Shown: piece after piece, positions 1,749-54,886 of the stretch
Layout: each line of letters starts with the position of its first letter
How positions within the stretch are numbered: position 1 is the stretch's first letter
Sequence record: OZ335964.1
Direction: 5' to 3' (one strand)
Length of the DNA stretch: 64,000 nucleotides
Source: a phage
Notes under the pieces: model-generated
Told to the model about the DNA's origin: nothing
What the model saw: the letters and a program-made list of their open reading frames with translations, nothing else
Database searches by the model: none
Program-made: the position numbers and the translations under genes

Positions 1749-4700
1749 ATGGCAGATTTATTAAATCAACATTTTAAAGCCACATTTGGCTTTGATGCTG
1801 GTAACGAAAAAGTCGTTAATGTAGCACTTGCAGATAAGAACACTCTCACTGATGCCGTTAACGTCGAATTTTTCAATTACCATAACGGTATTACGCAGTA
1901 TGACACAACTCGCGGTTATGATCAATACGGTACTGCAATCTATCAAAACCGTCCTTACTATGCAAAAGAAGATATCGCAAAACCAGCCGGAGAATTTGAT
2001 CCGACTAAATGGCAAGCACTGCGTACTGATCCACGTTGGGATTACATTGCAGCGACGTCCGGCGATACTCCCTTAAAGTCCGGTGATTATATCGCGGCGG
2101 ATTGCCAATTTGCAAACTTGACTTTCTCTATGCCTAACAAACCAGCCGAGGGAGATACTATAACAGTAAAAGATATCGGTGGCAAGTGTGGCGTAAACGA
2201 ATTATCGTTCCTTAGTTCCGGTCATGAGTTCTATCATAACGGAAACGTGTATAATCGCAAGTGGTATTGCACTACCCCTTATTCTATGGTGTATTTCATC
2301 TTTGCTCGTAACCGTTGGCATGTCTATCAGACTGGAACGGAGCCGCGCGGGGTATATGCACAACCAGCGATCGATCCTATCCAGATGCAGAACGGCGATC
2401 AGATATTCCGTCGCAGTGCGTTAGGTGAAATCAGTCTCGTGTTGCCTAAATTCGCTAATAATGGTGATGTGGTTTATACCACGGATCTGGATGGTCTGAC
2501 AGCAACCAACCACGTTACGATCAAGACTCATGAAGGAGCGCCGGATCATTCAATTGGCGCGGCTGGCGTGAAAGAGATTGTTGGTAAACGTAGCGGTCAT
2601 GGTGCATTCATCTTTGATATTGCAGAAAACTTATGGCGTGTCTGGGATGGCGACCAGTCTGTTCGTTTAAATCCGATTGTATCGGATACCCGTTTATCTC
2701 CGAATAGCTATGTTGCTGTATTTGGTGACAAAGATGTTACTCTGACTCTTCCTAGCAATGTAGAAATTGGTGACCGTATTCAGGTATCTATGCAGTATAT
2801 GCACGGAAACCAGAATTGCAAAATCGTAACTGCTGACGCAGATACAAAAATTCTTATGCAAAAGAATATGTTACAATTCCCTAAACGCAGTGAATACCCA
2901 TTCAACGGCGTTAATACATGGGGCGAAGTAACAGAATTATCATTCAATGCAGAGAAAGATTATGTTCCTTATCTGGAGTTCTCTTATACAGAAGGTGATG
3001 ACGGTAAGAAACACTGGTTGATTGCACATGCTCACCCGATGGTTGAACGCGTCGATCCTAAGCGTAAAGCGCGTGTAGGTGTTATTGCACTGGCTACTCA
3101 GGAAGAAACCAATAAAAACCATGAAGATAATCCTAACGATGAAGTAGCAGTTACCCCAAAAATGCTGGCTAACAAAACCGCAACCGAAACACGACGCGGT
3201 ATTGCTCGCATTGCTACTCAGGCGGAAACTCATCAAAATACTGGTTCCAACTTCCTCGATGATGTTATTGTTACGCCTAAAAAGCTGAATAACTGCGTTG
3301 CTACCGAAGAACGACGCGGGGTACTGGAAATCGCTACCCAGAATGAAACTAACGAAGGCTTAGACGATACCCGCGCTATTACTCCTAAGAAATTAGAAGA
3401 ACGTCGCGCTAGCGAAACTCTGGCAGGGATCGCGGAAATTGTAACTAATGGCGGTAAAGCTGCAACCGTTCGCGGTCAAACTGGCACTGGCATTTATGAT
3501 ATTAATGACCATGCTAAGATTGTTACCCCGCATAACCTGAATGAAGTTAAAGCTACCGAAACGTCTCGCGGTGTGGGTTATCTGGCAACTGATGCAGAAG
3601 TGCAAGGAGCAACGGAAACAACGCCACAAGATGCATTATTCATCACTACCCGTACTTTAACTAAGCGCACAGCAACAGAAACACGCACCGGGATCGCGGA
3701 GATTGCAACTCAGGAAGAAACCAACTTAGGGCAAAGTGATAACCATATTGTTACGCCTAAAAAGCTGCATACTCGCCGTGCTACTGAAACACTTCACGGT
3801 TTGGCTGAAATTGCCACACAAGACGAGTTTGACGCAGGACGCGATGATGCTCGCATTTCTACCCCGTTGAAGATTAAAACTTTCTTTGAACGTGCACAAC
3901 GTCTGAAAGTAGATCCGACTCAAGGGCTTAATCTTGAGGGTAATTTGTGGGATGGTATCACGATTCGCGGTTTGGATGCAAATGAAACCACTAAAGGTGT
4001 TGCTAAAGTTGCTACCCAGCAATTAACCGATGAAGGTCAAGATGATACTACCATTATCACGCCGAAAAAGCTACATGCTAAAAAGGCAACAGAAGATAAA
4101 GAAGGTATTATTCGAGTTGCTACAGAAGAAGAGGCTAAAGGTGGTGATTTAGGTAATGTTGCAATCACTCCTAAAACCTTTAAACTGGTTGTTCAGGATG
4201 CAGAAGACTGGAAAGCTACCGAAGGACGACGCGGATTCCTGAAAGTATCAACCAAAGAAAACTGTTTCGTTGGTGACAATTTACAGGGTTCTACTCAAGC
4301 ACTTGAACAATACCAGCATGAAGGGATTGCCGTAACTCCACGCGGTTTAAACTATGCTCTTGATAATTTCTTACCGAAAATGGCAACCGCTCAGAATAGT
4401 TTGAAATTAGGCAACGTAGAGGCCGCTAAATGGGCGCGTAGAGACGTAGATCAGGTTATTGAGTCCAACTATACCTTTAATAAAAAAGTCACTGTAAAAG
4501 GCGAATTAGAGGGATTAAAATCTGGATCGTTTGAAACTCTTTATATAACCAAAAATTCAACAGAAGAGGCGAGTACAGGGAATCTTGTTTTAGGTCTTCG
4601 TGGACAGAATGGTCATACCGGAATTGCACTGCATGGAACAACCGGAGACGTTGAGAACTCATGGGCTATGCTGGTAGGTGGCACTGGAACGAATCAAATC

Positions 4701-27180: not shown

Positions 27181-28572
27181 TCAAATATAGTCTACTCGAT
27201 ACCGCGCACGGGTAACACCCACATATAATAACTGCATTGCCAATTCAAAGTCAACATTGTCTGTACACATGCAAGGAGTATACAGGAACACGCGGTCTAC
27301 GCTTATCCCTTGTGACTTATGAATGGTGCAAGCTGGTAATGCTTTTACATTCAAGAACATACGTTTCATCGTCCAGAAGGAATCCCAATCTGGTTTAAAT
27401 TTTGGATTCTCTTTCTTCATTTCGCGATATTGTCCGGCGACCGTATTCAGATAGATAGAGAAAATGTTCTTCTGACGTTGTTCTGTCAGAATGTTGATTT
27501 CTACTAAATCCGGTTTATCTGTAGTGATTCCGACTGCATCTAAACCGACTTTCTGATTTAGGATTTCTTTGTCTTCGTCATCATCGACGCTTTCCACTTT
27601 CAGAGTATAGCCTAAAACTGGTTGCGGATCTACCCCTGTGCAACGTAATGTAAATTCGCGCGGGATAACCTCTTTAACTCGGATCATCTCACCATTGTTA
27701 AAAATAACATTGGGAATCTTCTTCCCGCGTTCATCTCGCAGATATTCGATCAACGGTTCCTGAGTAACCAGAATTTCATCTACAATCACTGGTTCATCGG
27801 TGTTATAAACGCGCTTACGCACAATTTCATTGAGTTTTTCGACGCTCTTGTTAGTGTAGGCCAGAATACGGTTTTCCAACAAGTCTTCCGGCGTTTTAAC
27901 AGCTTCAAAATAATGTTTCATGAACTCTGGCAGCGTTGAGCTATGGAATACACCCTCGTTGTCGCACTGCTTTTCGAATACCCATTTACCGTTACGGACA
28001 GCAGTCGCCACATCAATTATTGGCGCATTAGATCGTTTAATCTCTGTAAGTTCTACATTCTGGAACCTTTCATCTGTGAAGAAAGGAGAGATCGACGTTG
28101 CACCGCTCGGATCAACTGGTCGTAACTGGTACAGATCACCCACGGCAATAATAACAATTCGACCGTTGATACTCTTCATGAGAATATCAAATAGTTTCTT
28201 ATCGACCATACTCGCTTCATCAACAATGATGATCTGAACATCATCTAGCTTAGGAGTATCTTTTTGTTCAAATACTTGAGTATCTTCATAGTTGGTTGGA
28301 TTTAGTCGCAGTAGTGCATGTAAAGTAAATGCTTGACGACCTACCGCCTTACTCAAAACTTTTTTAGCCTGGTGGGTAGGCGTTGCCAAAACCACACCAG
28401 TTACACCACGGCGGACCATTTCCTGGACAATGAATTTCATCATTGCGGTTTTACCAGTACCCGCCGCACCACGGACAGTTGTATGCTTCTTTTGTTCAAT
28501 GCGTTTCATTAGAACATCAAAAGCATGTTTTTGTCCGTCTGTCAACATATCGAAAGTTAATACTCTGCTCAT
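27181..28572 (-). CDS. dda: Dda DNA helicase (SF1)
   Basis: Walker A GAAGTGKT, Walker B IIIVDEASM, and C-terminal block LYVGVTRAR. Confidence 0.85.
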   Translation of the reverse strand: MSRVLTFDMLTDGQKHAFDVLMKRIEQKKHTTVRGAAGTGKTAMMKFIVQEMVRRGVTGVVLATPTHQAKKVLSKAVGRQAFTLHALLRLNPTNYEDTQVFEQKDTPKLDDVQIIIVDEASMVDKKLFDILMKSINGRIVIIAVGDLYQLRPVDPSGATSISPFFTDERFQNVELTEIKRSNAPIIDVATAVRNGKWVFEKQCDNEGVFHSSTLPEFMKHYFEAVKTPEDLLENRILAYTNKSVEKLNEIVRKRVYNTDEPVIVDEILVTQEPLIEYLRDERGKKIPNVIFNNGEMIRVKEVIPREFTLRCTGVDPQPVLGYTLKVESVDDDEDKEILNQKVGLDAVGITTDKPDLVEINILTEQRQKNIFSIYLNTVAGQYREMKKENPKFKPDWDSFWTMKRMFLNVKALPACTIHKSQGISVDRVFLYTPCMCTDNVDFELAMQLLYVGVTRARYRVDYI

Positions 28573-38054: not shown

Positions 38055-39239
38055 TTAAATGTCAAACAGGTCAGTCAGAGAAGCAACTTTTTCATATTGC
38101 AGCTTTGCAGCCGTGGTAATGTTCTCCAGTGGTTTGACGAAAGTCTTATTAAACAACAAAGGCCAGTCTAACCACTTTAACACCTCGCTTTCAATTTCTG
38201 GAGGAATACGAGTACCGGACAACCAACCAAAACAGATTTCTCCAAACGGATTTCGATCTTTAAGCGGTACGATCATAACCTTCTCGCCTTCACGAATCGG
38301 ATCTAGTCCGAATTTTCGAGCATTACGATTATAACACAATACACTCTTAACCGCATACGGACAACCCTTAATCGGATACCCGTTTGAATCGCTGTATTTC
38401 TGTAGGTTGTTTGCAGATGATACCGCAGCAACCTCAAGATAGTCAAGTTTTCTAAACTCTTGCTCAAAAATACCGTAGTATTCCTGTAGCGATTCTTCCC
38501 CTTCCTGCAACATACGGCGAATACATTCTTTCAGTGATTTCTGACATGCTTTAGGGGTGGAGCTACGTTGCGTTTCCAAGCCCATGATTTTTAGCTTAGG
38601 TTCAGCAAAGCGCGTTCCTTCCATATCCCAAACATTAAGAGCATAACGCTTTTTGCCAGTCCAGAATCCACCGATACCCGCAGATTTCAACGGAGGACCA
38701 GCAATTGCCTCACGGTCCATAAACATCAAGTGCTCATAGTTATTCATGTACTCGCATAACTCGCGATATCCCTTGTCGATAATAGGTTCCATCCGATGTT
38801 TACCGAAATTATCAAGGAAGTCAACAAGTTTTTCGGTATCGTCGAAACGGTCTTCCCCGCCAACCTTATCAACAACATTGTTAACCAGCACATAAACGGA
38901 GTCAGTATCACAATAACGAACATATGCAAAATCAGTTGTTCCGCAAAGCTCGTTTAAGTATTCGTTAATCTTACGCTCAATCCATCTAATAGCGACCTGT
39001 CCAAATAGCGTAATCGCACTAGCATTACGCAGATCGTATAGGCGGAAACGTGGATTCCCAAGCGCGCCATAAAGGCTATTAATCAATACCTTACGAGAAA
39101 GCTGGTTTGTATTACATAAAACCGATTCGTTTTGACAATAGGTTAATAACTGCTTTAACTCATCTACAGACATTGACTCGAATTGTTCTAGCTGTTCGTC
39201 GGTGAAGTCTGAACGAACATCAATATTTTTAATATCCAA
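38055..39239 (-). CDS. 43: DNA polymerase gp43, C-terminal fragment (palm motifs B and C, thumb)
   Basis: Contains KILINSLYGALG (motif B) and YCDTDSVYV (motif C); begins at a TTG preceded by strong GGGGGTGA SD; no in-frame ATG nearby. Confidence 0.85.
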   Translation of the reverse strand: MDIKNIDVRSDFTDEQLEQFESMSVDELKQLLTYCQNESVLCNTNQLSRKVLINSLYGALGNPRFRLYDLRNASAITLFGQVAIRWIERKINEYLNELCGTTDFAYVRYCDTDSVYVLVNNVVDKVGGEDRFDDTEKLVDFLDNFGKHRMEPIIDKGYRELCEYMNNYEHLMFMDREAIAGPPLKSAGIGGFWTGKKRYALNVWDMEGTRFAEPKLKIMGLETQRSSTPKACQKSLKECIRRMLQEGEESLQEYYGIFEQEFRKLDYLEVAAVSSANNLQKYSDSNGYPIKGCPYAVKSVLCYNRNARKFGLDPIREGEKVMIVPLKDRNPFGEICFGWLSGTRIPPEIESEVLKWLDWPLLFNKTFVKPLENITTAAKLQYEKVASLTDLFDI

Positions 39240-39816
39240 TATTTCACCCCCATCAACGATTAATGTATAATTGCATATTCGCCATGATATTGTACTATAT
39301 GCCTATTATACGCGTCAATAGCTTCTTCTTCCGAATCAAAGTATCCTATATGATGCGTCTCGTGGTTTACTGTTATTCGAACACGCCATTTATCATAACC
39401 TCTCACCTTTGAGATTCCTTTGTATTTTGAAGTCCTTCCCTCAATAGAAATTGATCCATTGCTATTAATCTGATTTTCGTTATGAGAAGCCGCCCTTAAA
39501 TTTTCAATTCTATTATTGGTTCGAACTCTATCAACATGATCTATTTGAGTTTTTCCATTAATAGGTCTTTCCTTGCTAGGACAATGACCATGAAACATAT
39601 GGTATATCACACGATGAATTTTTCTAGCTTTGCCATCTATCCAAACTTTGCAATATCCTTGCTTGTCAGGAAACCTCCCGATCACCTGACCTTTTTGTGC
39701 TTGACTGCTGGTAGATATCTTTCTAATCAATATTCCATCGTCATATTGAAATAATCTGTGATAGAGTTCATAAAGTCTCTTATCTTCGTCATTGTAATGA
39801 ATAACTTGATACATCA
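39240..39816 (-). mobile_element. HNH endonuclease cassette interrupting gene 43
   Basis: Free-standing HNH ORF lies exactly between the two halves of an otherwise collinear B-family polymerase. Confidence 0.7.
39260..39814 (-). CDS. HNH homing endonuclease (HNH_3 + AP2 domain) inside gene 43
   Basis: QIDHVDRVRTNNRIENLRAASHNEN HNH motif; AP2-like KYKGISKVRGYDKWRVRI; ATG overlaps the stop of the polymerase N-fragment (TGATG). Confidence 0.85.
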   Translation of the reverse strand: MYQVIHYNDEDKRLYELYHRLFQYDDGILIRKISTSSQAQKGQVIGRFPDKQGYCKVWIDGKARKIHRVIYHMFHGHCPSKERPINGKTQIDHVDRVRTNNRIENLRAASHNENQINSNGSISIEGRTSKYKGISKVRGYDKWRVRITVNHETHHIGYFDSEEEAIDAYNRHIVQYHGEYAIIH

Positions 39817-41301
39817 CAACTCACCTCGCTTCTTCAATATTTCTTTTATTCGTTCAGCATTACGGTCACACGCCAACATCATGTTTTTGTACTGCTTACG
39901 CTGATCGAATACTTTCTTGATCTCAATCGGTATAATTCCATGAATATCTTTACGATACATCCAACCGTTAGGAGAACACGAGTATTCATCGCTAGGTCGT
40001 GGTGCTGTCTTATTAACATAATCATCAATTGGCGCGGCTTCAAACGATCCAGCGATTGTTTCCGGCGAAATGTTAACCTGTCGAATAATAGATGGGTACA
40101 GACTTGTTAAGTCAAAGCTCATCATCCAACGGTAAGCATTAGGTACTGGCTCTTTTACGAATGCGCCCGGATAAGTCTGCTTAGGCTGTATCTTATTTTC
40201 CGGTACTACTTTACCCTCAGCTTTCAGAGATCCGAAGATAATAGCATCCCATACTTTCATCGGGTTATAAACATGGTTAAATTTAATCTTTGCATAGAAA
40301 CATAGACTATACACAAGATCGATAAATCCACGCTTTTTATCAATCGCCAGCACACGATCAACGTCGCCGATGTTATAATCGATGTAAAGTTGATGGTTAT
40401 CATCACGCAATTTCTTTAACGGACCATCATAATCAACCTTACCGATTCCTGTCTCATATTCAGCAACATAATCTAATGCATATGTTGGTTGAGTCGTAAA
40501 GCTAAATTTCTTGTATAAGTCAATGTAGTCAAGGCTTTCGATCCCCATGATCGTAAATGCTTCACGCTCGTTGCCAAAATCATCCTGTGAGATTCGGGAT
40601 TTAATCTTACCGCACGGGCTTAGACGGTTAGCGGTTCTACTTCCGAACTTATTACTGATACGTTTAATGATATATGGAATATCGAATGTTTCTGTGTTCC
40701 AGCCAGTGAAACCAACGGGTCGGTTTTCCTCAAAGAATCGGATGTATTCTAACAGCAATTCATCTTCTGTATCATAGACGTTATAAACAACGCGCTCTAC
40801 AATATCAGGTCGAAGAATAGACTTTCTTGCTTCCCAGATTTCACCGTTTTTTCCTTTCAAATCAAACACAAAGAAACGATCATGTACGGAATCATAATGC
40901 GTAATTGCATCGATAGGATATTTCGCTTCTTCTGGTTTAGGAAATTCCGGTGCAGTGACCTCGATATCAACCCATGCTACACGGATTTTATTTCGGTCAT
41001 ATCGAATCTCGCCTTTATATGTATCGGACAGATAGGAGATGATAAAATCATCCATCCCTAGCGCCTCTTGCCCCATTTCCCCCATCTTTTTACGCCATTT
41101 GTTGGCCTCGTTCATAGATGGGAATTTTTTAGCAATGCAAGGCTTGCCATAGATATCTTTATAATTTGTAACCATACCAGGCGCGGCATGATGAAATAAA
41201 GTTGGCGTATATTCAACGTAACGCTCTTGTTCTTGTCCAGCATCATCAATATAACGCTCGTAGATCTTATCACCTACTCGCTCACATGACAGAAAATACA
41301 T
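39814..41301 (-). CDS. 43: DNA polymerase gp43, N-terminal fragment (3'-5' exonuclease + motif A)
   Basis: Exo I AWVDIEVT and polymerase motif A DLTSLYPSII; start set to M11 with GAAGGAG SD (track start is GTG). Confidence 0.85.
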   Translation of the reverse strand: MYFLSCERVGDKIYERYIDDAGQEQERYVEYTPTLFHHAAPGMVTNYKDIYGKPCIAKKFPSMNEANKWRKKMGEMGQEALGMDDFIISYLSDTYKGEIRYDRNKIRVAWVDIEVTAPEFPKPEEAKYPIDAITHYDSVHDRFFVFDLKGKNGEIWEARKSILRPDIVERVVYNVYDTEDELLLEYIRFFEENRPVGFTGWNTETFDIPYIIKRISNKFGSRTANRLSPCGKIKSRISQDDFGNEREAFTIMGIESLDYIDLYKKFSFTTQPTYALDYVAEYETGIGKVDYDGPLKKLRDDNHQLYIDYNIGDVDRVLAIDKKRGFIDLVYSLCFYAKIKFNHVYNPMKVWDAIIFGSLKAEGKVVPENKIQPKQTYPGAFVKEPVPNAYRWMMSFDLTSLYPSIIRQVNISPETIAGSFEAAPIDDYVNKTAPRPSDEYSCSPNGWMYRKDIHGIIPIEIKKVFDQRKQYKNMMLACDRNAERIKEILKKRGEL

Positions 41302-41383
41302 AATATAAACTCCTTCACTTACGAAAGACACTCATTATAGGGGAATCGACTTAGTTTGTCAATACCCCTATCCCATCAGTATC

Positions 41384-48179: not shown

Positions 48180-49205
48180 CTAACTTTTTGCGCTATTTAC
48201 TTCGGCTAAAAGTTCATCAGAAATACGCTTGACCGCCGCAAGTTCTTCTGGTTCTAGGTTTTGTTCTTCCAGATATTCATAGACCATCTGAATAGTGCTT
48301 TTAACTTCAATAACACCTGTTTCCTGTGATGCGCTACTCTCCAGCTTATGGACCACTTTTAGCTTGTGCACAACGGCCTCTAACGCGCTTTCTAACTTAG
48401 TTAACCCATTATCAGCGACCGTTGCGATAAGACGCACACTAAGCCCCTTAAAGCGTTCTACATCGATTTTATCATCTGACGGGTAAGTAATACGCACATG
48501 ATAAGTTTTGTCATTCTGAATAAACTCTTTTTTGTGTGTATCGGTATCGAATACCCAAAAACCACGCGGATCGTTTTCGTCACCCGCCGTTAGTGTGTAT
48601 GGTGTACCAATATATGTTACGTTACCGCCATCGCTGATAGTATGAAAGTGACCGGAAAACACTTCACGGTATTTCTTGAGGAAGTCCGCGCTATAACCTT
48701 CGGATTTTAGCCCTTTATAGAAATAGTAACCGGACAATTCCCAATGGCCTACACAATATTCGCTGAATGAGTTTTGAATAAACTCTAAAATCTCTGATTT
48801 ATTGTCATCACAAAACCACGGGAACAGATCAAATGATACACCATCAAAGGTAACTGTTTCCGGCTTATCAATGACCTTAATGCAATCATACTGGCTTAAC
48901 ACTTCACGCGGTGCGTTAGGCTGGATCTTATTGCGCTTAAACATATCATGATTCCCGACCGTGATATAACAAGTAATACCAGCCTCTTCCAGTAACGGGA
49001 TGACCTTAGTACGGTTAAATTTCATGGTTTCATGAGTAATTGCTTTTCGGCAATCAAACCAATCCCCTGTTTGAATCCATGTCTTAATATTATGCTCTTT
49101 GGAGTATTCAACCGCTTTCTTGATGGTATCAAGAATATACTCATGCACCCACGGATCATCGCCACCGATACCAGTATGCAGATCACCTAAAAGCAAAATT
49201 TTCAT
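48180..49205 (-). CDS. 47: recombination endonuclease subunit gp47 (Mre11-like phosphoesterase)
   Basis: Calcineurin-like phosphoesterase motifs LLLGDLH, GNHD, GHWE, GHFH; strong collinearity with T4 gp47. Confidence 0.85.
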   Translation of the reverse strand: MKILLLGDLHTGIGGDDPWVHEYILDTIKKAVEYSKEHNIKTWIQTGDWFDCRKAITHETMKFNRTKVIPLLEEAGITCYITVGNHDMFKRNKIQPNAPREVLSQYDCIKVIDKPETVTFDGVSFDLFPWFCDDNKSEILEFIQNSFSEYCVGHWELSGYYFYKGLKSEGYSADFLKKYREVFSGHFHTISDGGNVTYIGTPYTLTAGDENDPRGFWVFDTDTHKKEFIQNDKTYHVRITYPSDDKIDVERFKGLSVRLIATVADNGLTKLESALEAVVHKLKVVHKLESSASQETGVIEVKSTIQMVYEYLEEQNLEPEELAAVKRISDELLAEVNSAKS

Positions 49206-49255
49206 AGTCTCTTCCTCTCTTCGTTTTCGATGCTCTCACTATATCACAGAAAAAT

Positions 49256-49290
49256 AAAAAGGGAAACCCCTTTCGGAGTCTCCCTTATAA
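49256..49290 (-). terminator. possible terminator (weak stem, strong U-tract)
   Basis: Minus-strand short GC stems followed by TTTTTATTTTT. Confidence 0.35.
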
Positions 49291-49295
49291 AGCCA

Positions 49296-49583
49296 TTACA
49301 GCATACTTAATACCGTTTGCCGTGTACTGACCCACATAGCAGAAAGCAGTTCTGGCGTGTGTGGCTGTTTGTAGATATCACGTAACTTTCCGATAGCGTA
49401 GATATACGCATCACGGTTATCATCGATGATAGCTTGTTCAGCCCACCGCTTAAGGCGTGCAATCTCTCGCGAGTTCTTACGCAAGATCTTTTCCGCTTTC
49501 TTAGCGGCTTTCGCCTCTAGTTCTGCTTGAACTTTGTCTACTTCATTCACTACAATCTGGTCATGTTGTTCATCGTAAGTCAT
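49296..49583 (-). CDS. hypothetical protein (95 aa)
   Basis: ATG with AAGGAA SD. Confidence 0.45.
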   Translation of the reverse strand: MTYDEQHDQIVVNEVDKVQAELEAKAAKKAEKILRKNSREIARLKRWAEQAIIDDNRDAYIYAIGKLRDIYKQPHTPELLSAMWVSTRQTVLSML

Positions 49584-49584
49584 A

Positions 49585-49818
49585 TTATTTTCCTTCTGGG
49601 ATATAGTCGATGATTAAAGAAAATTCATCTTCTGATACATTATAGCTATGTGAGATTGTACCCGTAAAGACCTCAAGATCCGGTGACTTGATATTACACG
49701 GATCGATAATCACCGGAACGCCGCAATCTCTCAAAAATAATTTGGCGAAATACGGCACAAGGTCAGTTTCAAACTCTGCTTCTTCCAGCAAACGGGAAAT
49801 GTTAATTTTCAATCTCAT
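49585..49818 (-). CDS. hypothetical protein (77 aa)
   Basis: Track ORF; overlaps the gp55 3' end by 17 nt. Confidence 0.45.
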
Positions 49819-50335
49819 AAAATTGGTCCAGGCTAGGCAATTCCTCGGTCAATACATCTTCAACCTTTGGCGCTTTCGGTTTATTGACCGATTCCTCGTA
49901 GTTGTTGATTTTATCGTAAATGTCCTGTATGAATGCCTCATCCGCAATCTGGCACATATCAGCGTCGCGTTCGTCATATACATGATGCACAAAATATTTG
50001 TATTTTGCGGCTGTCGCTGTTCTTTCTTTTTTAATGCGCTGCACAAAAGCATTAAAGCACGCTTGCGTAATGTAAGCATGAGGATTTTTATACTTTGTCT
50101 CGTCAAAATTAATCAAACCCTTGACCGCCGCTTCGATTCCGTCGTCGATCATTTCTTCGCGCCATGTTTGACTATAGCCAGAAAAGTTAAAACGCCGTGA
50201 TAGATTTTTAGAGATTTGCATAATTGCTAGACCGATTTGGTCGCTCATTGGCACTTGCCGACCTTCTGCTGCAATTCGTTGTTTCCAACGGCAAATTTCT
50301 TCGTAAAGCTCTTTATTGTTTACATAATCAGACAC
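49802..50335 (-). CDS. 55: late-transcription sigma factor gp55
   Basis: Conserved blocks [50 protein letters not shown]; initiates at GTG with GAGGGTG SD, no in-frame ATG upstream. Confidence 0.8.
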
Positions 50336-50346
50336 TTCGCACCCTC

Positions 50347-50370
50347 GCTATTATTTAGGAAATAACCCTT
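50347..50370 (-). other. stem-loop with GAAA tetraloop in the gene 55 leader
   Basis: Minus-strand AAUAGCCC-GAAA-GGGUUAUU just upstream of the gp55 SD. Confidence 0.3.
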
Positions 50371-50375
50371 TCGGG

Positions 50376-51845
50376 CTATTCCCCATTACCATTATACTTT
50401 CTTTGCTTAGTTATCCACACTCTAACCATTTCTACTGATTCGCCGTCAGACGGATCAAGAGTTTTTCCTTTTTTCTTCATGCGGTACTTAAATCCGTTAA
50501 ATCTTGCATTCTCTTGCTCGTTAAAGTCGAACATCTTTTTAAATGATTTTCGCCCTTTACGCTCACCACATTCTAGCGGAATCATTCGGTCTGTTATTAC
50601 ATTGGCATTAGGTAGAAACGTTTTTAGATAATCCACCAACGCCCAATCAGGAACATATAGATTAACATTCTCCTTGCTCTCGTTGTCTCTCAGGTTACAA
50701 CGCAAACATAATTGAAATGCTGGTTCCAGATAATCAGACACATGACGCGCTTTCAAAAACTCGTTTGTCGGGAGATCACAACTATTAGCAAGACCTTTTA
50801 AAATATCAATCTCCCATCGTTGAGGGTTAAAGCTGAACATCACAGCAACATTTTTATGATGAATGTAAGAGTTAAGACCATAAGATCCGTAAGGTATCCG
50901 CTCACCAATACCATTTGTGCACGCTTCTCGGTCCCGATTCACGGTATAAATGAAGTCATCACCACATTCATTTTTAACCATATCAACAAGACGTTCAAAG
51001 GTATTGTTTGTTTCTGACTGGTGACGCGACCATCGTTCAGAGTCCGTCATAAGGATGATGTTAACTCTATCTGTATTTTTATACTCTTTGAAATATAGTC
51101 TGGATTCTAGCGCACTCGGAACAAAATCGCAATTTGCATAGTATCGTAGATACTTCCCACTATATGTATCAAAGAGATTTGCACATGCTATCGTAACCTT
51201 TTTAAAGTCTCCCCACGTACCGTGTTTGTTATCGTTCAAGAAAACAATTTTCGACCCATTCTTCCGGTGTCCTTCGTTATGTTTTACCATAACGTTGATT
51301 TTCTTCTCTAATAACGCCTCATAAAGCCCTCTAAGCGAAGAATCGATCATATCAGTACCATCCTTCGCACTTTCTATCTTTTCTTTGATAGCGGACTTCT
51401 CAGAGTCTTTTAGAACTAAGTTCTGTAGGCATTCCGATTCGTCGGCGATTGGTTCGCAATGCTTCGTGATAAGTTCAAGATTAGACTTAAACGGATACTC
51501 ATTAAATTCAACCAGTTGAGGAACTTCATCAATGTAAAGAGCATAATCACCAAACATTTTTGAACGTTCCATATTAGATAACGCTGTATGTGTAATGAAT
51601 ATCACATCAGCACCGTCTTTAACTGATTGCATTATCGACGCTTGCACTGTCTTAAGGCTTCTTAGTCGTGTGCTATCAATCAAGACAGCACGACCGCCCA
51701 TTCTTTTAAACTTATTGTAAGATTGTTCACTTAAAACACGAGATGGCGAAGCAATAACCGCTTTTTCTTTTGTCTCTAGGACGTGGGAAAGTATAGCATC
51801 AGTTTTCCCCGCCGCTGGCAATGCGATTAATGTTTCAATCTTCAT
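50376..51845 (-). CDS. P-loop NTPase of unknown function (489 aa)
   Basis: N-terminal Walker A ALPAAGKTDA (residues 9-18) and Walker B ALYIDEV (~110); Cys-rich C-terminal half; no T4 counterpart recognised at this position. Confidence 0.6.
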   Translation of the reverse strand: MKIETLIALPAAGKTDAILSHVLETKEKAVIASPSRVLSEQSYNKFKRMGGRAVLIDSTRLRSLKTVQASIMQSVKDGADVIFITHTALSNMERSKMFGDYALYIDEVPQLVEFNEYPFKSNLELITKHCEPIADESECLQNLVLKDSEKSAIKEKIESAKDGTDMIDSSLRGLYEALLEKKINVMVKHNEGHRKNGSKIVFLNDNKHGTWGDFKKVTIACANLFDTYSGKYLRYYANCDFVPSALESRLYFKEYKNTDRVNIILMTDSERWSRHQSETNNTFERLVDMVKNECGDDFIYTVNRDREACTNGIGERIPYGSYGLNSYIHHKNVAVMFSFNPQRWEIDILKGLANSCDLPTNEFLKARHVSDYLEPAFQLCLRCNLRDNESKENVNLYVPDWALVDYLKTFLPNANVITDRMIPLECGERKGRKSFKKMFDFNEQENARFNGFKYRMKKKGKTLDPSDGESVEMVRVWITKQRKYNGNGE

Positions 51846-52132
51846 TAGAAACCCTTACGTCGTGCTTTCTGGCATTTCTTGATCATTTTATCAGAAATTT
51901 CGCGCTTAGGTGCAATCTCTTTCACACCGAAAGCACTAATGCCAAATTCAGAGAGAATATATTCAACCAACAATTCACGCACACGCGCTTTACCGATATT
52001 CACGCCGTTATTTTTCAGATATGTCTGGCCTTCGACTTGCATCAGATCTAAATCTGCGTCGGTAATATTGATTTCTTCCATGCGCCCAAATCGAGAATAA
52101 ACCATGTGTGCGATTGCATTGTGTACTAACAT
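51845..52132 (-). CDS. hypothetical protein (95 aa)
   Basis: Track ORF starts at TTG; M7 ATG has GAGGAA SD. Confidence 0.45.
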   Translation of the reverse strand: MLVHNAIAHMVYSRFGRMEEINITDADLDLMQVEGQTYLKNNGVNIGKARVRELLVEYILSEFGISAFGVKEIAPKREISDKMIKKCQKARRKGF

Positions 52133-52153
52133 AATATATTCCTCACTCAAGAA

Positions 52154-52312
52154 TTACTTAATGATACTTACTTTACCAGATCCATGACAATGAGCGCAAC
52201 ACCCATCACCACGCAATCCTGTTCCGTTACAGTGTTTACACTTCTTCAACGGTAAAGCCATTATAGCAAATAAAGCAATAATGAATACCGAAACTAAATT
52301 CTCAATAATCAT
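52154..52312 (-). CDS. small membrane-anchored zinc-finger protein (52 aa, 2x CxxCxGxG)
   Basis: Not in ORF track; GAGGG SD; MIIENLVSVFIIALFAIMALPLKKCKHCNGTGLRGDGCCAHCHGSGKVSIIK = TM helix + two DnaJ-type CxxCxGxG repeats. Confidence 0.4.
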   Translation of the reverse strand: MIIENLVSVFIIALFAIMALPLKKCKHCNGTGLRGDGCCAHCHGSGKVSIIK

Positions 52313-52571
52313 AAATCGCCCTCAGTTCTTTATAGCCTCCAATGTGCTCGTTGTCAATGAATATCTGGGGGTATACAAACCGGAGGCTCTTTGAGTTCAG
52401 CCTCCCCGCCAGTTCTTCAATCATATCACGGTCGGGAATAATGTCAACCCCGACCTGCTTGAATACTGGTTTAAGTGTATACGGAATACCCAGATCATCC
52501 AGTAGCTTCATTGCACTAATACAACCATAACAATGATAAGCCTCTTTCGGTATACCGTATATCTCGATCAT
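52302..52571 (-). CDS. nrdH: glutaredoxin-like protein (NrdH-like)
   Basis: 89 aa; CYGC active site and glutaredoxin C-terminal block PQIFIDNEHIGGY. Confidence 0.7.
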   Translation of the reverse strand: MIEIYGIPKEAYHCYGCISAMKLLDDLGIPYTLKPVFKQVGVDIIPDRDMIEELAGRLNSKSLRFVYPQIFIDNEHIGGYKELRAIYDY

Positions 52572-53044
52572 TTCTCAGCCTTTAATCTTTCTAGTTCTTC
52601 TTCCAGTTCCTTGATCCGTTGGTCACGTTCAAAGTCACGCTGTAACTTAGTGGCGAATACTCGTTTAAACTGATTGTAATCATCGATTTTAAACACTTCT
52701 TCTTCGCCATAGCGACGCACAGAAACTTCGTAGTTATTGAAGAATTGTTGCATCATTGCTTCGGATGATAGCTCTGCTGATACCACTTTAAAATATTGAT
52801 CTTCTGTAGGCGAAAACCAATTACAAGCATAAAGATAAACCTTTTCATTGTCTGGACACTGGTAAGCCTTACCATCGATTTCAATCACAGAAACATATTC
52901 AGGTATACTAGATGAATCAATAGCTAAGACTTTAAACGCACGGTCCCCGATAAACTCGGAGATCACACGATTCGCATCACTGGTTGCAAATGCTTTACGC
53001 GCTTGTTCGTTTTTCCACTGATAGGTCATACCAACAACAAACAT
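52568..53044 (-). CDS. paralogous family protein (158 aa), N-terminal beta-domain + helical tail
   Basis: Track ORF trimmed to M9 with GAGGATGG SD; GMTYQWKNEQARKAF...IEIDGKAY domain shared with neighbours. Confidence 0.5.
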   Translation of the reverse strand: MFVVGMTYQWKNEQARKAFATSDANRVISEFIGDRAFKVLAIDSSSIPEYVSVIEIDGKAYQCPDNEKVYLYACNWFSPTEDQYFKVVSAELSSEAMMQQFFNNYEVSVRRYGEEEVFKIDDYNQFKRVFATKLQRDFERDQRIKELEEELERLKAEK

Positions 53045-53045
53045 A

Positions 53046-53870
53046 TTACCATCCTCGCTCTTTACCAATCAAAAATTCAACTTCACGACGTTTAATGTCT
53101 TCTTGAAGGTCTTTAATCTTCTGGCGATCTTGCATGATTTCATCCATCTTGTCAAGTGCCGCAATGAAATCATCGAAACGTTCAAAGGTTTTACCTTCAT
53201 TTGCTTCGCCAAATTTAACCATTGTCAGTCCGTAACGACTACTAAACAGACGTTTCAACTGTCCAACGATCTTAGAATCAGTGGTTATAACTTCCAATTC
53301 TTCTACTTCACGAAAGAATTTTCTATCAGAATCAATAAACCAGCTAGTTCCTTTATGGTCTCTATCTTCGGTTGCGCTCATTAGAGTATGGTCTTTACCA
53401 TCAATTTCAATTACATCAATTTGCCCACATGGACTAACATTTTTAACAGTAAAAGGTCTATAATTTATTGCTCGTGCAATAACATAATTAAGGTTAGATA
53501 CGTTTTCAGCATAATGGCAGAAGTCGGTCATAGCATTCGCATCTTTCCAAGTATAAGTTTTACCAACTTCCCATTTCTGGGGAACTTCTTCAACTTCACG
53601 AAAGAATTTTCGATCGAATGGACTAAAGAAATATGTTGCAGTCCAAATGTCTTTTCCTGTAGCAGTTTTCGCCGTATGATAAACACCGTCTAGCTCTATT
53701 GCATTAATCCAACCGTTACCCTCGATCTCGATGATGGTAAATGGCTTGTCACCAATAGCTGCACTAATATCGCTGTTAAGTGGAGAAAGAACACCTTCTC
53801 CGTTAGTAATAAACTCAGTTTTAGCGTTTTCATCTTTCCAAGTGTAAGTTTTACCAATTTCCCATTTCAT
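53046..53870 (-). CDS. paralogous family protein (274 aa), two tandem domain repeats
   Basis: Two copies of KWE(I/V)GKTYTWKD...IE(L/I)DG...DRKFFREVEE within one ORF; AAGGGGA SD. Confidence 0.55.
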   Translation of the reverse strand: MKWEIGKTYTWKDENAKTEFITNGEGVLSPLNSDISAAIGDKPFTIIEIEGNGWINAIELDGVYHTAKTATGKDIWTATYFFSPFDRKFFREVEEVPQKWEVGKTYTWKDANAMTDFCHYAENVSNLNYVIARAINYRPFTVKNVSPCGQIDVIEIDGKDHTLMSATEDRDHKGTSWFIDSDRKFFREVEELEVITTDSKIVGQLKRLFSSRYGLTMVKFGEANEGKTFERFDDFIAALDKMDEIMQDRQKIKDLQEDIKRREVEFLIGKERGW

Positions 53871-53882
53871 AATATATTCCCC

Positions 53883-54347
53883 TTAACCGATTTTATCAAG
53901 TTCGTTTAATGCTTTCTCTGCTTCCTGTATAGCTTGCACCCTTTCCGGCATTTTGTCAAGAAAATCTTTCAACTCTTCAAAACTGGAGATATGACGCAAG
54001 GCGTTAGCACCGATAGCCGCATGTGATTTGCATTCAAAGCGAATTTTATAATTATCCATCGCCAACTTGAGAAGATCAATTAGTTTAGATTCTTCTGGAA
54101 TACTAATTTCTTCAAATCTGCTACGGTCGTGATCCAGAAACCAACAAGATAGACCTACATCGGTTGAACTCATATAAGTTCCATCATGAAGATATACAGA
54201 TCGCACGTATCCTTTTTTCGCATCAACCGACGCAACTTTAAACGGTAATCGCAGATATTTCAAATAATCAACATCATACCATTTAAAAAATTGGTTTGCA
54301 TCTTTTACATCTTTCCACGCATAGGTCTTACCAACTTCCCATTTCAT
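53883..54347 (-). CDS. paralogous family protein (154 aa)
   Basis: Track ORF trimmed to M6 (MKWEVGKTYAWKD...). Confidence 0.5.
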   Translation of the reverse strand: MKWEVGKTYAWKDVKDANQFFKWYDVDYLKYLRLPFKVASVDAKKGYVRSVYLHDGTYMSSTDVGLSCWFLDHDRSRFEEISIPEESKLIDLLKLAMDNYKIRFECKSHAAIGANALRHISSFEELKDFLDKMPERVQAIQEAEKALNELDKIG

Positions 54348-54351
54348 AATA

Positions 54352-54876
54352 TCATCTCTCATTTTTGATACGTGATTCTAATTGGATCATACGGTCTCGC
54401 GTTTGCTTGTATTCACGGATATTGCCGATCCGGCTAGGCATACCATCAAGCACGCTCTTAATCCCTTCTAGGGTAGTGATTTTAGCAATGCTATTATGTA
54501 ACCCCATCTTATCGATCAACTGAATGTCGTAGGCTTCCATAAGCAGACCCAGACGTTCTAAAGTTAGGTCTTCTTTTTCTTCCGATTCTGGAATCTTAGG
54601 TTCAATAGTAACTTCGGTAAAGAAACGACGCTCACCAGCCCAAAACCACACACCGGAAAAGCCAATAGGGGATTCTTTTAACGTCATAGAGTCGTAACCA
54701 CTGCCGATAATAGTAATTTCTCTAACATCACCATCATCGTCAATGTCTTCTACCCTAAACGGGCGACCAGCCAACAAGTCCACAATACGTCTGTTAATAG
54801 ACGACGAAAATTTAGTCAGTTCGGCTTTCGACGCTTCGCATTCAATCTTGTAAGTTTTACCAACTTCCCATTCCAT
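54352..54876 (-). CDS. paralogous family protein (174 aa)
   Basis: Track ORF starts at GTG; M4 (MEWEVGKTY...) has GAGGTGA SD. Confidence 0.5.
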   Translation of the reverse strand: MEWEVGKTYKIECEASKAELTKFSSSINRRIVDLLAGRPFRVEDIDDDGDVREITIIGSGYDSMTLKESPIGFSGVWFWAGERRFFTEVTIEPKIPESEEKEDLTLERLGLLMEAYDIQLIDKMGLHNSIAKITTLEGIKSVLDGMPSRIGNIREYKQTRDRMIQLESRIKNER

Positions 54877-54886
54877 AATAATCACC

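What the first reader, a model, noticed from the sequence alone, without database searches (positions are those of the whole stretch)
50376..51845. Unassigned P-loop NTPase upstream of gene 55
This 489-aa protein has a Walker A motif (ALPAAGKTDA) at residues 9-18 and Walker B (ALYIDEV) about 100 residues later, followed by a Cys-rich C-terminal half. I could not match it to any T4 core protein (not Dda, UvsW, gp41, gp44 or a terminase by motif order), and nothing equivalent sits between 47 and 55 in T4 as I recall it. It could be an accessory ATPase or helicase-like factor.
Basis: partly seen in the sequence, partly recalled or inferred. Interest (0 to 1): 0.55.

Follow-up and report, generated by a model that had tools for sequence, protein, structure and literature searches.

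The report
Uncharacterised XPD/DinG-like helicase in T4-like phage
The flagged gene is a real, conserved but never-studied helicase-type motor protein of RB49-like and many other non-T-even T4-like phages; it is folded most like XPD/DinG DNA helicases but has no iron-sulfur cluster, T4 itself lacks it, and its relatives are core genes of small integrase-bearing bacterial islands.

Summary

By sequence only the first RecA domain is recognisable, as generic DEAD-like, so membership in the DinG family is structural and not established.

The gene sits in a conserved slot, 55.2 - helicase - 55, across divergent Straboviridae. T4 has the unrelated 55.1 there. Dda and gp41 are present elsewhere in the window, so this is an additional helicase.

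An exhaustive search finds about 1,360 related clusters. In 11 of the 12 bacterial loci informative for gene neighbourhood, the relative lies beside a tyrosine integrase, often with a resolvase and defence cargo. Some relatives end in a true HTH domain.

The function is untested. I infer an ATP-driven accessory DNA helicase or translocase. Interest is moderate.

The parts
50376..51845 (-). Whole gene: 489-aa SF2 helicase-like protein (orthologue of RB49ORF044c / RB49p044; PHROG 2467)
   Evidence: ORF; phrog_2467 2.7e-175 over full length; 99-100% identical in Krischvirus genomes; RB49 annotation
51795..51824 (-). Motif I / Walker A, ALPAAGKTDA (residues 8-17)
   Evidence: P10 G13 K14 T15 invariant; K14 invariant in 77 distant relatives
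51720..51761 (-). Motif Ia, AVIASPSRVLSEQS (residues 29-42), resembling the PTRELA-Q motif of DEAD-like helicases
   Evidence: S33 L38 S42 invariant; aligned to motif Ia of RhlE, PriA and Mss116
51579..51611 (-). Motif Ib-like strand, ADVIFITHTAL (residues 79-89); compare E. coli DinG AEVVVANHALV
   Evidence: V81 F83 T85 H86 L89 invariant; DinG sequence read. This is a direct visual comparison, not a statistically scored one.
51513..51542 (-). Motif II / Walker B, ALYIDEVPQL (residues 102-111); DEVP rather than DEAD or DEAH
   Evidence: D106 E107 invariant in both alignments
51201..51515 (-). About 105-aa insertion (residues 111-215) between motifs II and III: strands plus a helical hairpin (H147-162, H166-179). 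This is the position of the Arch domain in XPD/DinG.
51174..51200 (-). Motif III-like strand, KVTIACANL (residues 216-224)
   Evidence: T218 and N223 nearly invariant; strand E216-221 in the model
50814..50900 (-). Motifs V/Va, RIPYGSYGLNSY...NVAVMFSFNPQRW (residues 316-344)
   Evidence: Y319 G323 N325 N340 W344 invariant; G323 N325 invariant in the superfamily
50688..50732 (-). Motif VI, YLEPAFQLCLRCNLR (residues 372-386), carrying the arginine fingers
   Evidence: Q378 R382 R386 invariant in 77 distant relatives
50604..50666 (-). Post-motif-VI strand, VNLYVPDWALVDYLKTFLPNA (residues 394-414); compare DinG VVIYDKRLL...LLDALP
   Evidence: L396 V398 D400 invariant; V398 and D400 at 90% or more in the superfamily; DinG sequence (visual comparison)
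50379..50573 (-). Basic helical C-terminal tail (residues 425-489; 17 K+R against 10 D+E). Bacterial relatives have a true HTH at this position.
   Evidence: tails of relatives; HTH_23 in 10/77, HTH_28 in 6/77, HTH_29 in 6/77 relatives. Homology of the phage tail to those HTHs is not significant (hhalign probability 0.6%).
51845..52150 (-). Upstream neighbour: orthologue of T4 gp55.2 (DUF7570). Its stop codon overlaps the helicase start (TAATG).
   Evidence: 42% identity to T4 gp55.2, E=9e-20; Pfam DUF7570 1.4e-28; overlap read; T4 gp55.2 is an inhibitor of host topoisomerase I (PMC4396842)
49802..50335 (-). Downstream neighbour: gene 55, late sigma factor
   Evidence: phrog_234 4.8e-63; RB49 annotation

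Best explanation
The ORF encodes an active superfamily-2 nucleic-acid motor whose architecture is closest to the XPD/DinG (Rad3-like) DNA helicases. It has RecA domain 1, an Arch-like insertion between motifs II and III, RecA domain 2, no Fe-S domain, and a basic helical tail. Shown: the gene is real, under purifying selection, and carries every ATPase and arginine-finger residue. The fold is a two-RecA SF2 helicase with XPD/DinG as nearest solved neighbours. The gene is in the leftward gene block with no late-promoter consensus nearby. It is additional to Dda and gp41. It is syntenic (55.2 - helicase - 55) across distant Straboviridae and absent from T4. Inferred: it binds ssDNA across the two RecA domains and uses ATP to translocate, probably 5'->3' as XPD/DinG enzymes do. 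In this way it would unwind or remodel DNA (forks, R-loops or protein-DNA blocks) as an accessory factor in phage replication and recombination, with the basic tail providing extra DNA contact. Its relatives are core genes of integrase-bearing mobile islands and of other phages, and some carry C-terminal HTH domains, which points to a general role in the DNA metabolism of mobile elements.
Against: No biochemical or genetic data exist for any member. Sequence profiles do not place the protein in the DinG family. No DEAD_2 or Helicase_C_2 Pfam family appears among the listed hits. hhalign against E. coli DinG gives only 8.6-27% probability, against 85-93% for the DEAD-box protein RhlE over RecA1. 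PDB profile hits are generic RecA1 domains (PriA, Mss116, reverse gyrase, Mfd). Foldseek TM-scores to XPD/DinG are moderate (0.42-0.50). I could not obtain residue-level structural alignments of the insertion to the Arch domain. Polarity and substrate (DNA versus RNA) are inferred only. The Fe-S or pseudo-Fe-S wedge that XPD/DinG enzymes use for strand separation is absent.
Confidence: 0.55

Rival explanations
1. It is a DEAD-box-like RNA helicase or RNA chaperone that remodels phage or host RNA, for example early transcripts, the degradosome or ribosomes.
For: The only significant sequence-family signals are DEAD-like: Pfam DEAD at 27.3 bits, hhalign to E. coli RhlE at 85-93% probability over RecA1, and PDB profile hits to Mss116, DDX42, DDX52 and Dbp5.
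Against: There is no room for a Q motif, since the P-loop strand starts at residue 2. Motif II is DEVP, motif III is TIACAN rather than SAT, and motif VI is QLCLRCNLR rather than HRIGRxGR. Pfam Helicase_C hits only 2 of 77 members, at 0.025. A 105-aa insertion separates motifs II and III. The nearest structures are DNA helicases. Relatives carry dsDNA-type HTH tails and sit in integrative DNA elements.
Confidence: 0.12
2. It is a site-specific replication-initiator helicase, like the origin-binding SF2 helicase UL9. It would recognise a DNA site through its C-terminal tail and open the duplex to start replication of the phage, or of an excised island in the bacterial relatives.
For: Relatives have C-terminal HTH_23, HTH_28, HTH_29 or HTH_7 domains. 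In the islands it is the only large conserved gene besides the recombinases. Two relatives give weak Herpes_ori_bp hits (0.0014).
Against: The tail of the T4-like clade is not detectably an HTH (hhalign probability 0.6%). No iteron arrays were found next to the gene in two islands or in the window. From background knowledge, T4-type phages initiate replication from R-loops and recombination intermediates and are not known to need such a protein, and T4 does without this gene.
Confidence: 0.15
3. It is a non-unwinding dsDNA translocase or remodeller, or a counter-defence factor. It might strip or outrun host nucleases or defence helicases, compensating for the lack of T-even-type cytosine modification in these lineages.
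Against: There is no match to PADLOC models. No Snf2-specific insertions or motifs were found. The link to DNA modification status is only a loose correlation and was not tested genome by genome.
Confidence: 0.1
4. It works together with the translationally coupled gp55.2, which in T4 inhibits host topoisomerase I, as a helicase-topoisomerase machine analogous to reverse gyrase or RecQ-Topo III that acts on DNA supercoiling.
For: The start codon overlaps the stop of the 55.2 orthologue (TAATG). The 55.2 - helicase adjacency is conserved in RB49, RB43, PM2 and VmeM-32, and phiAS5 has a small unnamed ORF in that position whose identity was not checked. T4 gp55.2 targets TopA (PMC4396842). The reverse-gyrase helicase domain is among the RecA1 profile hits at 2e-5.
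Against: The two genes are separable: T4 has 55.2 without the helicase, and phage 44RR has the helicase behind an unrelated ORF. The reverse-gyrase hit is no better than other generic SF2 hits. No interaction evidence exists.
Confidence: 0.05
5. It is simply a strongly diverged copy of a known T4 helicase (UvsW, Dda or gp41) or of the terminase.
Against: Dda and gp41 orthologues are elsewhere in the window. UvsW ranks far below XPD/DinG. There is no tblastn hit in T4-type genomes. T4 has the unrelated 55.1 at the locus.
Confidence: 0.02

Closest known systems
XPD/DinG (Rad3-like) SF2 DNA helicases, especially the Fe-S-less forms: CasDinG, the ExoDinG of Staphylococcus aureus, the DinG of Finegoldia magna, and the three-domain 'sDinG' of cyanobacteria (review PMC11981726)
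   Different: There is no Fe-S or pseudo-Fe-S domain; only about 36 residues with no conserved Cys lie between motifs Ia and Ib. Motif II is DEVP rather than DEAH. DEAD_2 and Helicase_C_2 Pfam families are not among the listed hits, and hhalign to E. coli DinG is non-significant. The insertion is small (~105 aa). sDinG is reported to lack ATP-binding residues, whereas this family keeps them all. The protein is phage- and island-encoded and has a basic or HTH C-terminal tail.
DEAD-box / generic DExD/H RecA1 domains (E. coli RhlE, Mss116, PriA, Mfd, reverse-gyrase helicase module)
   Same: The first ~115 residues align significantly, covering motifs I, Ia, GG, Ib and II.
T4 UvsW, Dda and gp41 (the known T4 helicases)
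   Same: They are phage-encoded helicases from the same replication and recombination gene neighbourhood, and UvsW is also SF2.
Hna and other defence-associated DinG-like helicase-nucleases
   Different: Hna has a C-terminal PD-(D/E)XK nuclease domain, which this protein lacks. There is no PADLOC match.

Membership tests
Superfamily 2 helicases/translocases | Walker A (GxGKT) and Walker B (DExx) in RecA domain 1 | tested here: met
   AAGKT at residues 11-15 and DEV at 106-108; invariant in alignments A1 and A2
Superfamily 2 helicases/translocases | Two tandem RecA-like domains, with a motif VI arginine finger in the second | tested here: met
Superfamily 2 helicases/translocases | Pfam DEAD (PF00270) at or above the gathering score | tested here: met
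   27.3 bits against a cutoff of 26 (marginal) on residues 11-130; 58 of 77 relatives hit DEAD
Superfamily 2 helicases/translocases | Pfam Helicase_C (PF00271) on the second domain | tested here: not met
   No hit for the window protein; only 2 of 77 relatives, best E 0.025
XPD/DinG-like helicases | Fe-S (4-Cys) or pseudo-Fe-S domain inserted in motor domain 1 (definition from PMC11981726) | tested here: not met
   Only about 36 residues lie between motifs Ia and Ib. No conserved Cys occurs there; the only clade-invariant Cys are C130 and C380, and none is invariant in the superfamily.
XPD/DinG-like helicases | Arch domain inserted in motor domain 1 between motifs II and III | tested here: inconclusive
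   A ~105-aa insertion sits at exactly this position, and XPD/DinG align over 60-100 more residues than generic SF2 helicases. The tools gave no residue-level superposition of the insertion on an Arch domain.
XPD/DinG-like helicases | Nearest structural neighbours are XPD/DinG members | tested here: met
XPD/DinG-like helicases | Sequence-profile membership (Pfam DEAD_2 / Helicase_C_2, or a significant profile alignment to DinG) | tested here: not met
   Neither family is among the hits for the window protein or the 25 families listed for 77 relatives. hhalign A2 versus E. coli DinG gives 8.6% probability. Sub-domain runs give 0.2-27%. No XPD/DinG chain appears among the 60 best PDB profile hits shown.
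XPD/DinG-like helicases | 5'->3' ssDNA translocation and unwinding | not testable with these tools
   Requires biochemistry
DEAD-box RNA helicases | Q motif upstream of motif I; motif II D-E-A-D; motif III S-A-T; motif VI HRxGRxGR | tested here: not met
   Only 7 residues precede the P-loop. The motifs are DEVP, TIACAN and QLCLRCNLR.
Known T4 helicases (Dda, gp41, UvsW) | Orthology to the T4 protein | tested here: not met
Origin-binding SF2 initiator helicases (UL9-like) | C-terminal sequence-specific DNA-binding domain and cognate repeated sites | tested here: inconclusive
   HTH_23/28/29/7 domains occur in the tails of bacterial relatives. The window protein's tail is not significantly similar. 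No iterons were found in two islands or in the window.

The most novel reading that the evidence does not exclude
This family (PHROG 2467 and about 1,360 related clusters) would be the signature replication or mobilisation helicase of a so-far undescribed class of small phage-related integrative islands. Their layout is tyrosine integrase - small ORFs or a KilA-N/ANT protein - helicase with a C-terminal HTH - variable defence cargo - serine resolvase. The copy fixed at the 55.2-55 locus of non-T-even T4-like phages would be its phage counterpart. It might act as a site-directed initiator or restart helicase, or together with gp55.2 on host topoisomerase I. In either case it would be a new class of Fe-S-less, Arch-bearing helicase with a function not covered by T4 biology.
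Probability: 0.12. Interest if true: 0.7.

Novelty: new variant of a known kind. Interest (0 to 1): 0.4.

Why it matters
T4 is the reference for phage DNA replication and recombination, yet many of its relatives carry a fourth helicase at a fixed, ancient locus. These include RB49-, RB43-, 44RR-, Aeh1- and PM2-like phages and a Vibrio strabovirus. T4 lacks the gene and nobody has studied it. Knowing what it does would show which DNA transaction T4 solves differently. The same motor is a core gene of integrase-bearing islands that ferry defence systems (Pycsar, TIR, type I R-M) in Pseudomonas and metagenomes, so its function bears on how such islands replicate or move. Structurally it would extend the XPD/DinG-like architecture to a minimal, Fe-S-free, catalytically intact form.

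Tried and rejected
- The single-sequence phmmer search against PDB found nothing. The A1 profile gave only a 0.74 E-value hit to a DEAD protein.
- NCBIfam gave no hit. PADLOC gave only a spurious 0.0088 hit.
- I tested whether the gene replaces Dda as a 5'-3' accessory helicase. This is rejected because a Dda orthologue is present at 27181-28572.
- I tested for sequence-level DinG membership with hhalign against E. coli DinG, both whole and by sub-domain. The results were not significant, and the RecA1 domain aligns better to the DEAD-box protein RhlE.
- I tested whether the phage tail is homologous to the HTH tails of bacterial relatives. The alignment register is the same but the probability is only 0.6%.
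- I searched for iterons or origin-like repeats next to the gene in two islands and in the window. Only short two-copy matches turned up.
- I checked for a late promoter (TATAAATA) near the gene and found none.
- Base composition shows no sign of recent horizontal acquisition (GC 0.39 versus 0.40 for the window).
- The upstream ORF in phage 44RR is not a 55.2 homologue, so the 55.2-helicase pairing is not universal.
- T4 gp55.1 is unrelated to the helicase.
- The search for related loci failed with the broad alignments and with the single protein P0096 before succeeding with A4.
- Literature searches for locus tags, PHROG id and island type returned nothing beyond the 2006 table entry.

Full report
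**1. Observation**

The ORF listing and translation show a 489-codon ORF at 50376-51845 on the minus strand. Walker A (ALPAAGKTDA) is at residues 8-17 and Walker B (ALYIDEV) at 102-108.

The window is an RB49-like coliphage (Krischvirus). The 10 kb around the ORF is 97-98% identical to RB49, phi1, JSE and others, and the protein is 99-100% identical to their 'hypothetical protein'. It is RB49ORF044c / RB49p044 and is called 'putative helicase' in phage W115.

The gene order on the minus strand is nrdG ... nrdH - 52-aa ORF - 55.2 orthologue (51845-52150) - this ORF - gene 55 (49802-50335) - a-gt.5 - a-gt.4 - gene 47 (48180-49205). It lies between 55.2 and 55, not between 47 and 55.

The 'Cys-rich' remark does not hold up. 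The protein has 10 Cys (2.0% versus 1.0% elsewhere in the window). Only C130 and C380 are conserved within the T4-like clade, and none across the wider family.

**2. Conservation**

PHROG 2467 ('unknown function') matches end to end at 2.7e-175. tblastn finds the gene in 244 phage records: Krischvirus, RB43-like phages, Aeromonas 44RR/25/phiAS4/phiAS5/Aeh1-like phages, and Proteus, Serratia, Cronobacter, Erwinia, Yersinia, Klebsiella and Enterobacter phages. No T4-type phage is among them.

The locus is syntenic in very divergent straboviruses. The order nrdG - nrdH - 55.2 - helicase - 55 - (a-gt.4) - 47 - 46 holds in RB49, Proteus PM2, Aeromonas phiAS5 and Vibrio VmeM-32. RB43 keeps 55.2 - helicase in front of a rearranged neighbour. 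T4 has the unrelated 87-aa 55.1 in this slot.

The upstream ORF is 42% identical to T4 gp55.2 (E 9e-20), which was shown experimentally to inhibit E. coli topoisomerase I (PMC4396842). Its stop codon overlaps the helicase start (TAATG). The pairing is not universal, because 44RR has an unrelated ORF upstream.

There is no late-promoter consensus near the gene and its base composition matches its neighbours. It therefore looks like a long-resident gene that is not driven by a late promoter. I infer it is ancestral at this locus and was lost or replaced in the T-even lineage.

**3. Motifs**

A 29-sequence alignment of the T4-like clade (31-99% identity) and a 77-sequence alignment reaching about 20% identity show a full SF2 motif set:
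- Motif I: PAAGKT.
- Motif Ia: IAS-SR-LS-QS.
- A GG doublet.
- Motif Ib: VIFITH-AL.
- Motif II: LYIDEVP.
- A motif III-like strand: VTIA-AN.
- Motifs V/Va: PY--HGLN-Y ... NVAV-FS-NP.
- Motif VI: EP-FQLC-R--IR.
- A following strand: NL-VPD.

K14, D106, E107, G323, N325, Q378, R382 and R386 are invariant in all 77 sequences. This argues for a catalytically active ATPase.

**4. Fold**

AlphaFold2 with alignment A1 gives pLDDT 87.5 and pTM 0.77.

Foldseek independently puts ten XPD/DinG/CasDinG entries on top (E 4e-11 to 6e-8; TM 0.42-0.50).

The secondary-structure map shows about 105 residues (111-215; strands plus a helical hairpin) between motif II and the motif III-like strand. E. coli DinG has its Arch insertion between DEGHH and IIVTSATL, the same position. 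By contrast, only about 36 residues without conserved Cys separate motifs Ia and Ib, so there is no Fe-S or pseudo-Fe-S domain.

A recent review defines DinG-like proteins by MD1, MD2, Fe-S/pFe-S and Arch domains and 5'-3' translocation. It describes Fe-S-less subgroups, including a three-domain 'sDinG' that lacks ATP-binding residues (PMC11981726). The present family has the three-domain layout but intact catalytic residues.

**5. Limits of the DinG assignment**

Sequence methods recognise only RecA1, and as a generic or DEAD-like domain:
- Pfam DEAD scores 27.3 bits against a cutoff of 26.
- The PDB profile search hits PriA, Mss116, reverse gyrase, DDX proteins and Mfd over positions ~10-115.
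- hhalign gives 85-93% probability to E. coli RhlE but 8.6-27% to E. coli DinG, and nothing for the insertion or RecA2.
- DEAD_2 and Helicase_C_2 do not appear.

By eye, motif Ib (ADVIFITHTAL versus AEVVVANHALV) and the motif VI region (FQLCLRCNLR...VNLYVPD...LP versus QQVGRLIRS...VVIYDKR...LP) resemble DinG. That comparison is not a statistical test.

I therefore describe the protein as XPD/DinG-like in architecture and do not claim it as a family member. DEAD-box membership fails on the Q, SAT and HRIGRxGR motifs.

**6. Wider family and context**

An exhaustive HMM search of 1.84 billion cluster representatives finds 1,361 relatives at E<=1e-3 and 799 at E<=1e-10. Many are about 480-550 aa, and many are about 750-890 aa with an unannotated C-terminal extension.

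BFVD structural relatives include proteins of Agrobacterium phage Atu_ph07, Ralstonia phiRSL1, Fusobacterium Fnu1, Pseudoalteromonas H101 and a Sulfolobus fusellovirus.

The ~480-aa bacterial relatives end in recognisable HTH domains: HTH_23 in 10 of 77, HTH_28 in 6 and HTH_29 in 6.

Their genomic context is consistent. Of 12 bacterial loci informative for gene neighbourhood, 11 have a tyrosine integrase next to the helicase (the twelfth, L017, has only a resolvase); in 6 of 7 Pseudomonas genomes it lies 0.3-1.5 kb upstream on the same strand. A serine resolvase often follows downstream. The cargo in between varies and includes Pycsar (AGS_C + PycTM), a TIR protein, a type I R-M system and a KilA-N/ANT antirepressor. 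Two islands sit at the same chromosomal site, between recD and a LysR gene.

One 835-aa relative lies in a phage-like contig. The island protein matches phrog_2467 at 2.5e-48.

The motor is therefore a core gene of small phage-related integrative elements as well as of phages, which points to DNA rather than RNA as the substrate.

**7. Mechanism**

*Shown:* a conserved, intact SF2 ATPase with XPD/DinG-like three-domain architecture and a basic helical tail (17 K+R in 65 residues). It sits in the replication and recombination gene neighbourhood and is additional to Dda and gp41.

*Inferred:* it binds ssDNA across the two RecA domains and translocates with ATP, probably 5'->3' as XPD/DinG enzymes do. 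The small Arch-like insertion would cover the DNA path and the tail would add DNA affinity; in relatives the tail may add site specificity. Its role would be as an accessory helicase or translocase at forks, R-loops or recombination intermediates of the phage.

Confidence is about 0.55 for 'active DNA-dependent SF2 motor of XPD/DinG-like build' and lower for polarity and for the exact process.

The rivals are:
- a DEAD-like RNA helicase (0.12);
- an origin-specific initiator (0.15);
- a dsDNA translocase or counter-defence factor (0.10);
- a helicase-topoisomerase partnership with gp55.2 (0.05);
- a diverged known T4 helicase (0.02, essentially refuted).

**8. Novelty and verdict**

The ORF has been in databases since RB49 was sequenced. 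A weak DEAD-helicase match (E 0.069) was tabulated in 2006 (PMC1524935). No paper found in the library mentions it otherwise.

New here are:
- the structural placement next to XPD/DinG without an Fe-S domain;
- the invariant catalytic set across a very large family;
- the conserved 55.2 - helicase - 55 synteny with loss in T4;
- the link to integrase/resolvase islands carrying defence cargo.

This is a new variant of a known kind (an SF2 helicase), of moderate interest. It is a good candidate for experiment but not a surprise to specialists.

Noticed in passing
window 38055-41331 (minus strand); insertion ORF at 39260-39817: DNA polymerase gene 43 is split into an N-terminal ORF (39814-41331, 505 aa) and a C-terminal ORF (38055-39239, 394 aa). 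A 185-aa HNH + AP2-type homing-endonuclease ORF lies between them. All 64 Krischvirus records in the phage collection lack this ~570-bp insertion, and the flanks are only ~87% identical compared with ~98% elsewhere, which resembles a co-conversion tract.
   Followed up: partly
window 49205-49296 versus L001 (RB49) 3211-3765: RB49 carries an HNH/AP2 endonuclease gene (RB49p040) between gene 47 and a-gt.4. This window has only a ~90-bp gap there. The endonuclease inside gene 43 of the window is 34% identical to RB49p040.
   Followed up: partly
window 52568-54885 (minus strand): Four adjacent ORFs (52568-53068, 53046-53870, 53883-54362, 54352-54885) form a tandem paralogue array. Each copy starts with a W-E/K-V/I-GKTY-x-WKD motif, and the 274-aa ORF contains two copies. 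The two tested (52568-53068 and 53046-53870) have no Pfam match.
   Followed up: no
window 52154-52312 (minus strand): A 52-aa ORF between nrdH and 55.2 has a hydrophobic N-terminus and a CxxC...CxxC pattern, suggesting a membrane-anchored zinc ribbon. It is annotated 'putative membrane protein' in phage W115.
   Followed up: no
L006 4461-13344; L008 106-7150; L012; L015; L017; L020-L026: Bacterial relatives of the helicase lie in small integrative islands, in Pseudomonas genomes and in metagenomes. The layout is tyrosine integrase - small ORFs or KilA-N/ANT - helicase with a C-terminal HTH - variable cargo (Pycsar, TIR, type I R-M) - serine resolvase. Two of the islands are inserted at the same recD/LysR site. 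I found no description of this island type.
   Followed up: partly
window 50336-50378 (minus strand, between the helicase stop and the gene 55 GTG start): The 40-nt spacer contains a small CCCGAAAGGG hairpin (GAAA tetraloop) immediately after the helicase stop codon. Gene 55 starts with GTG.
   Followed up: no
proteins P0074, P0076, P0081 and others (750-890 aa relatives): Many relatives carry a ~350-aa C-terminal extension with no Pfam match. It matches only PHROG 31024 ('unknown function').
   Followed up: no
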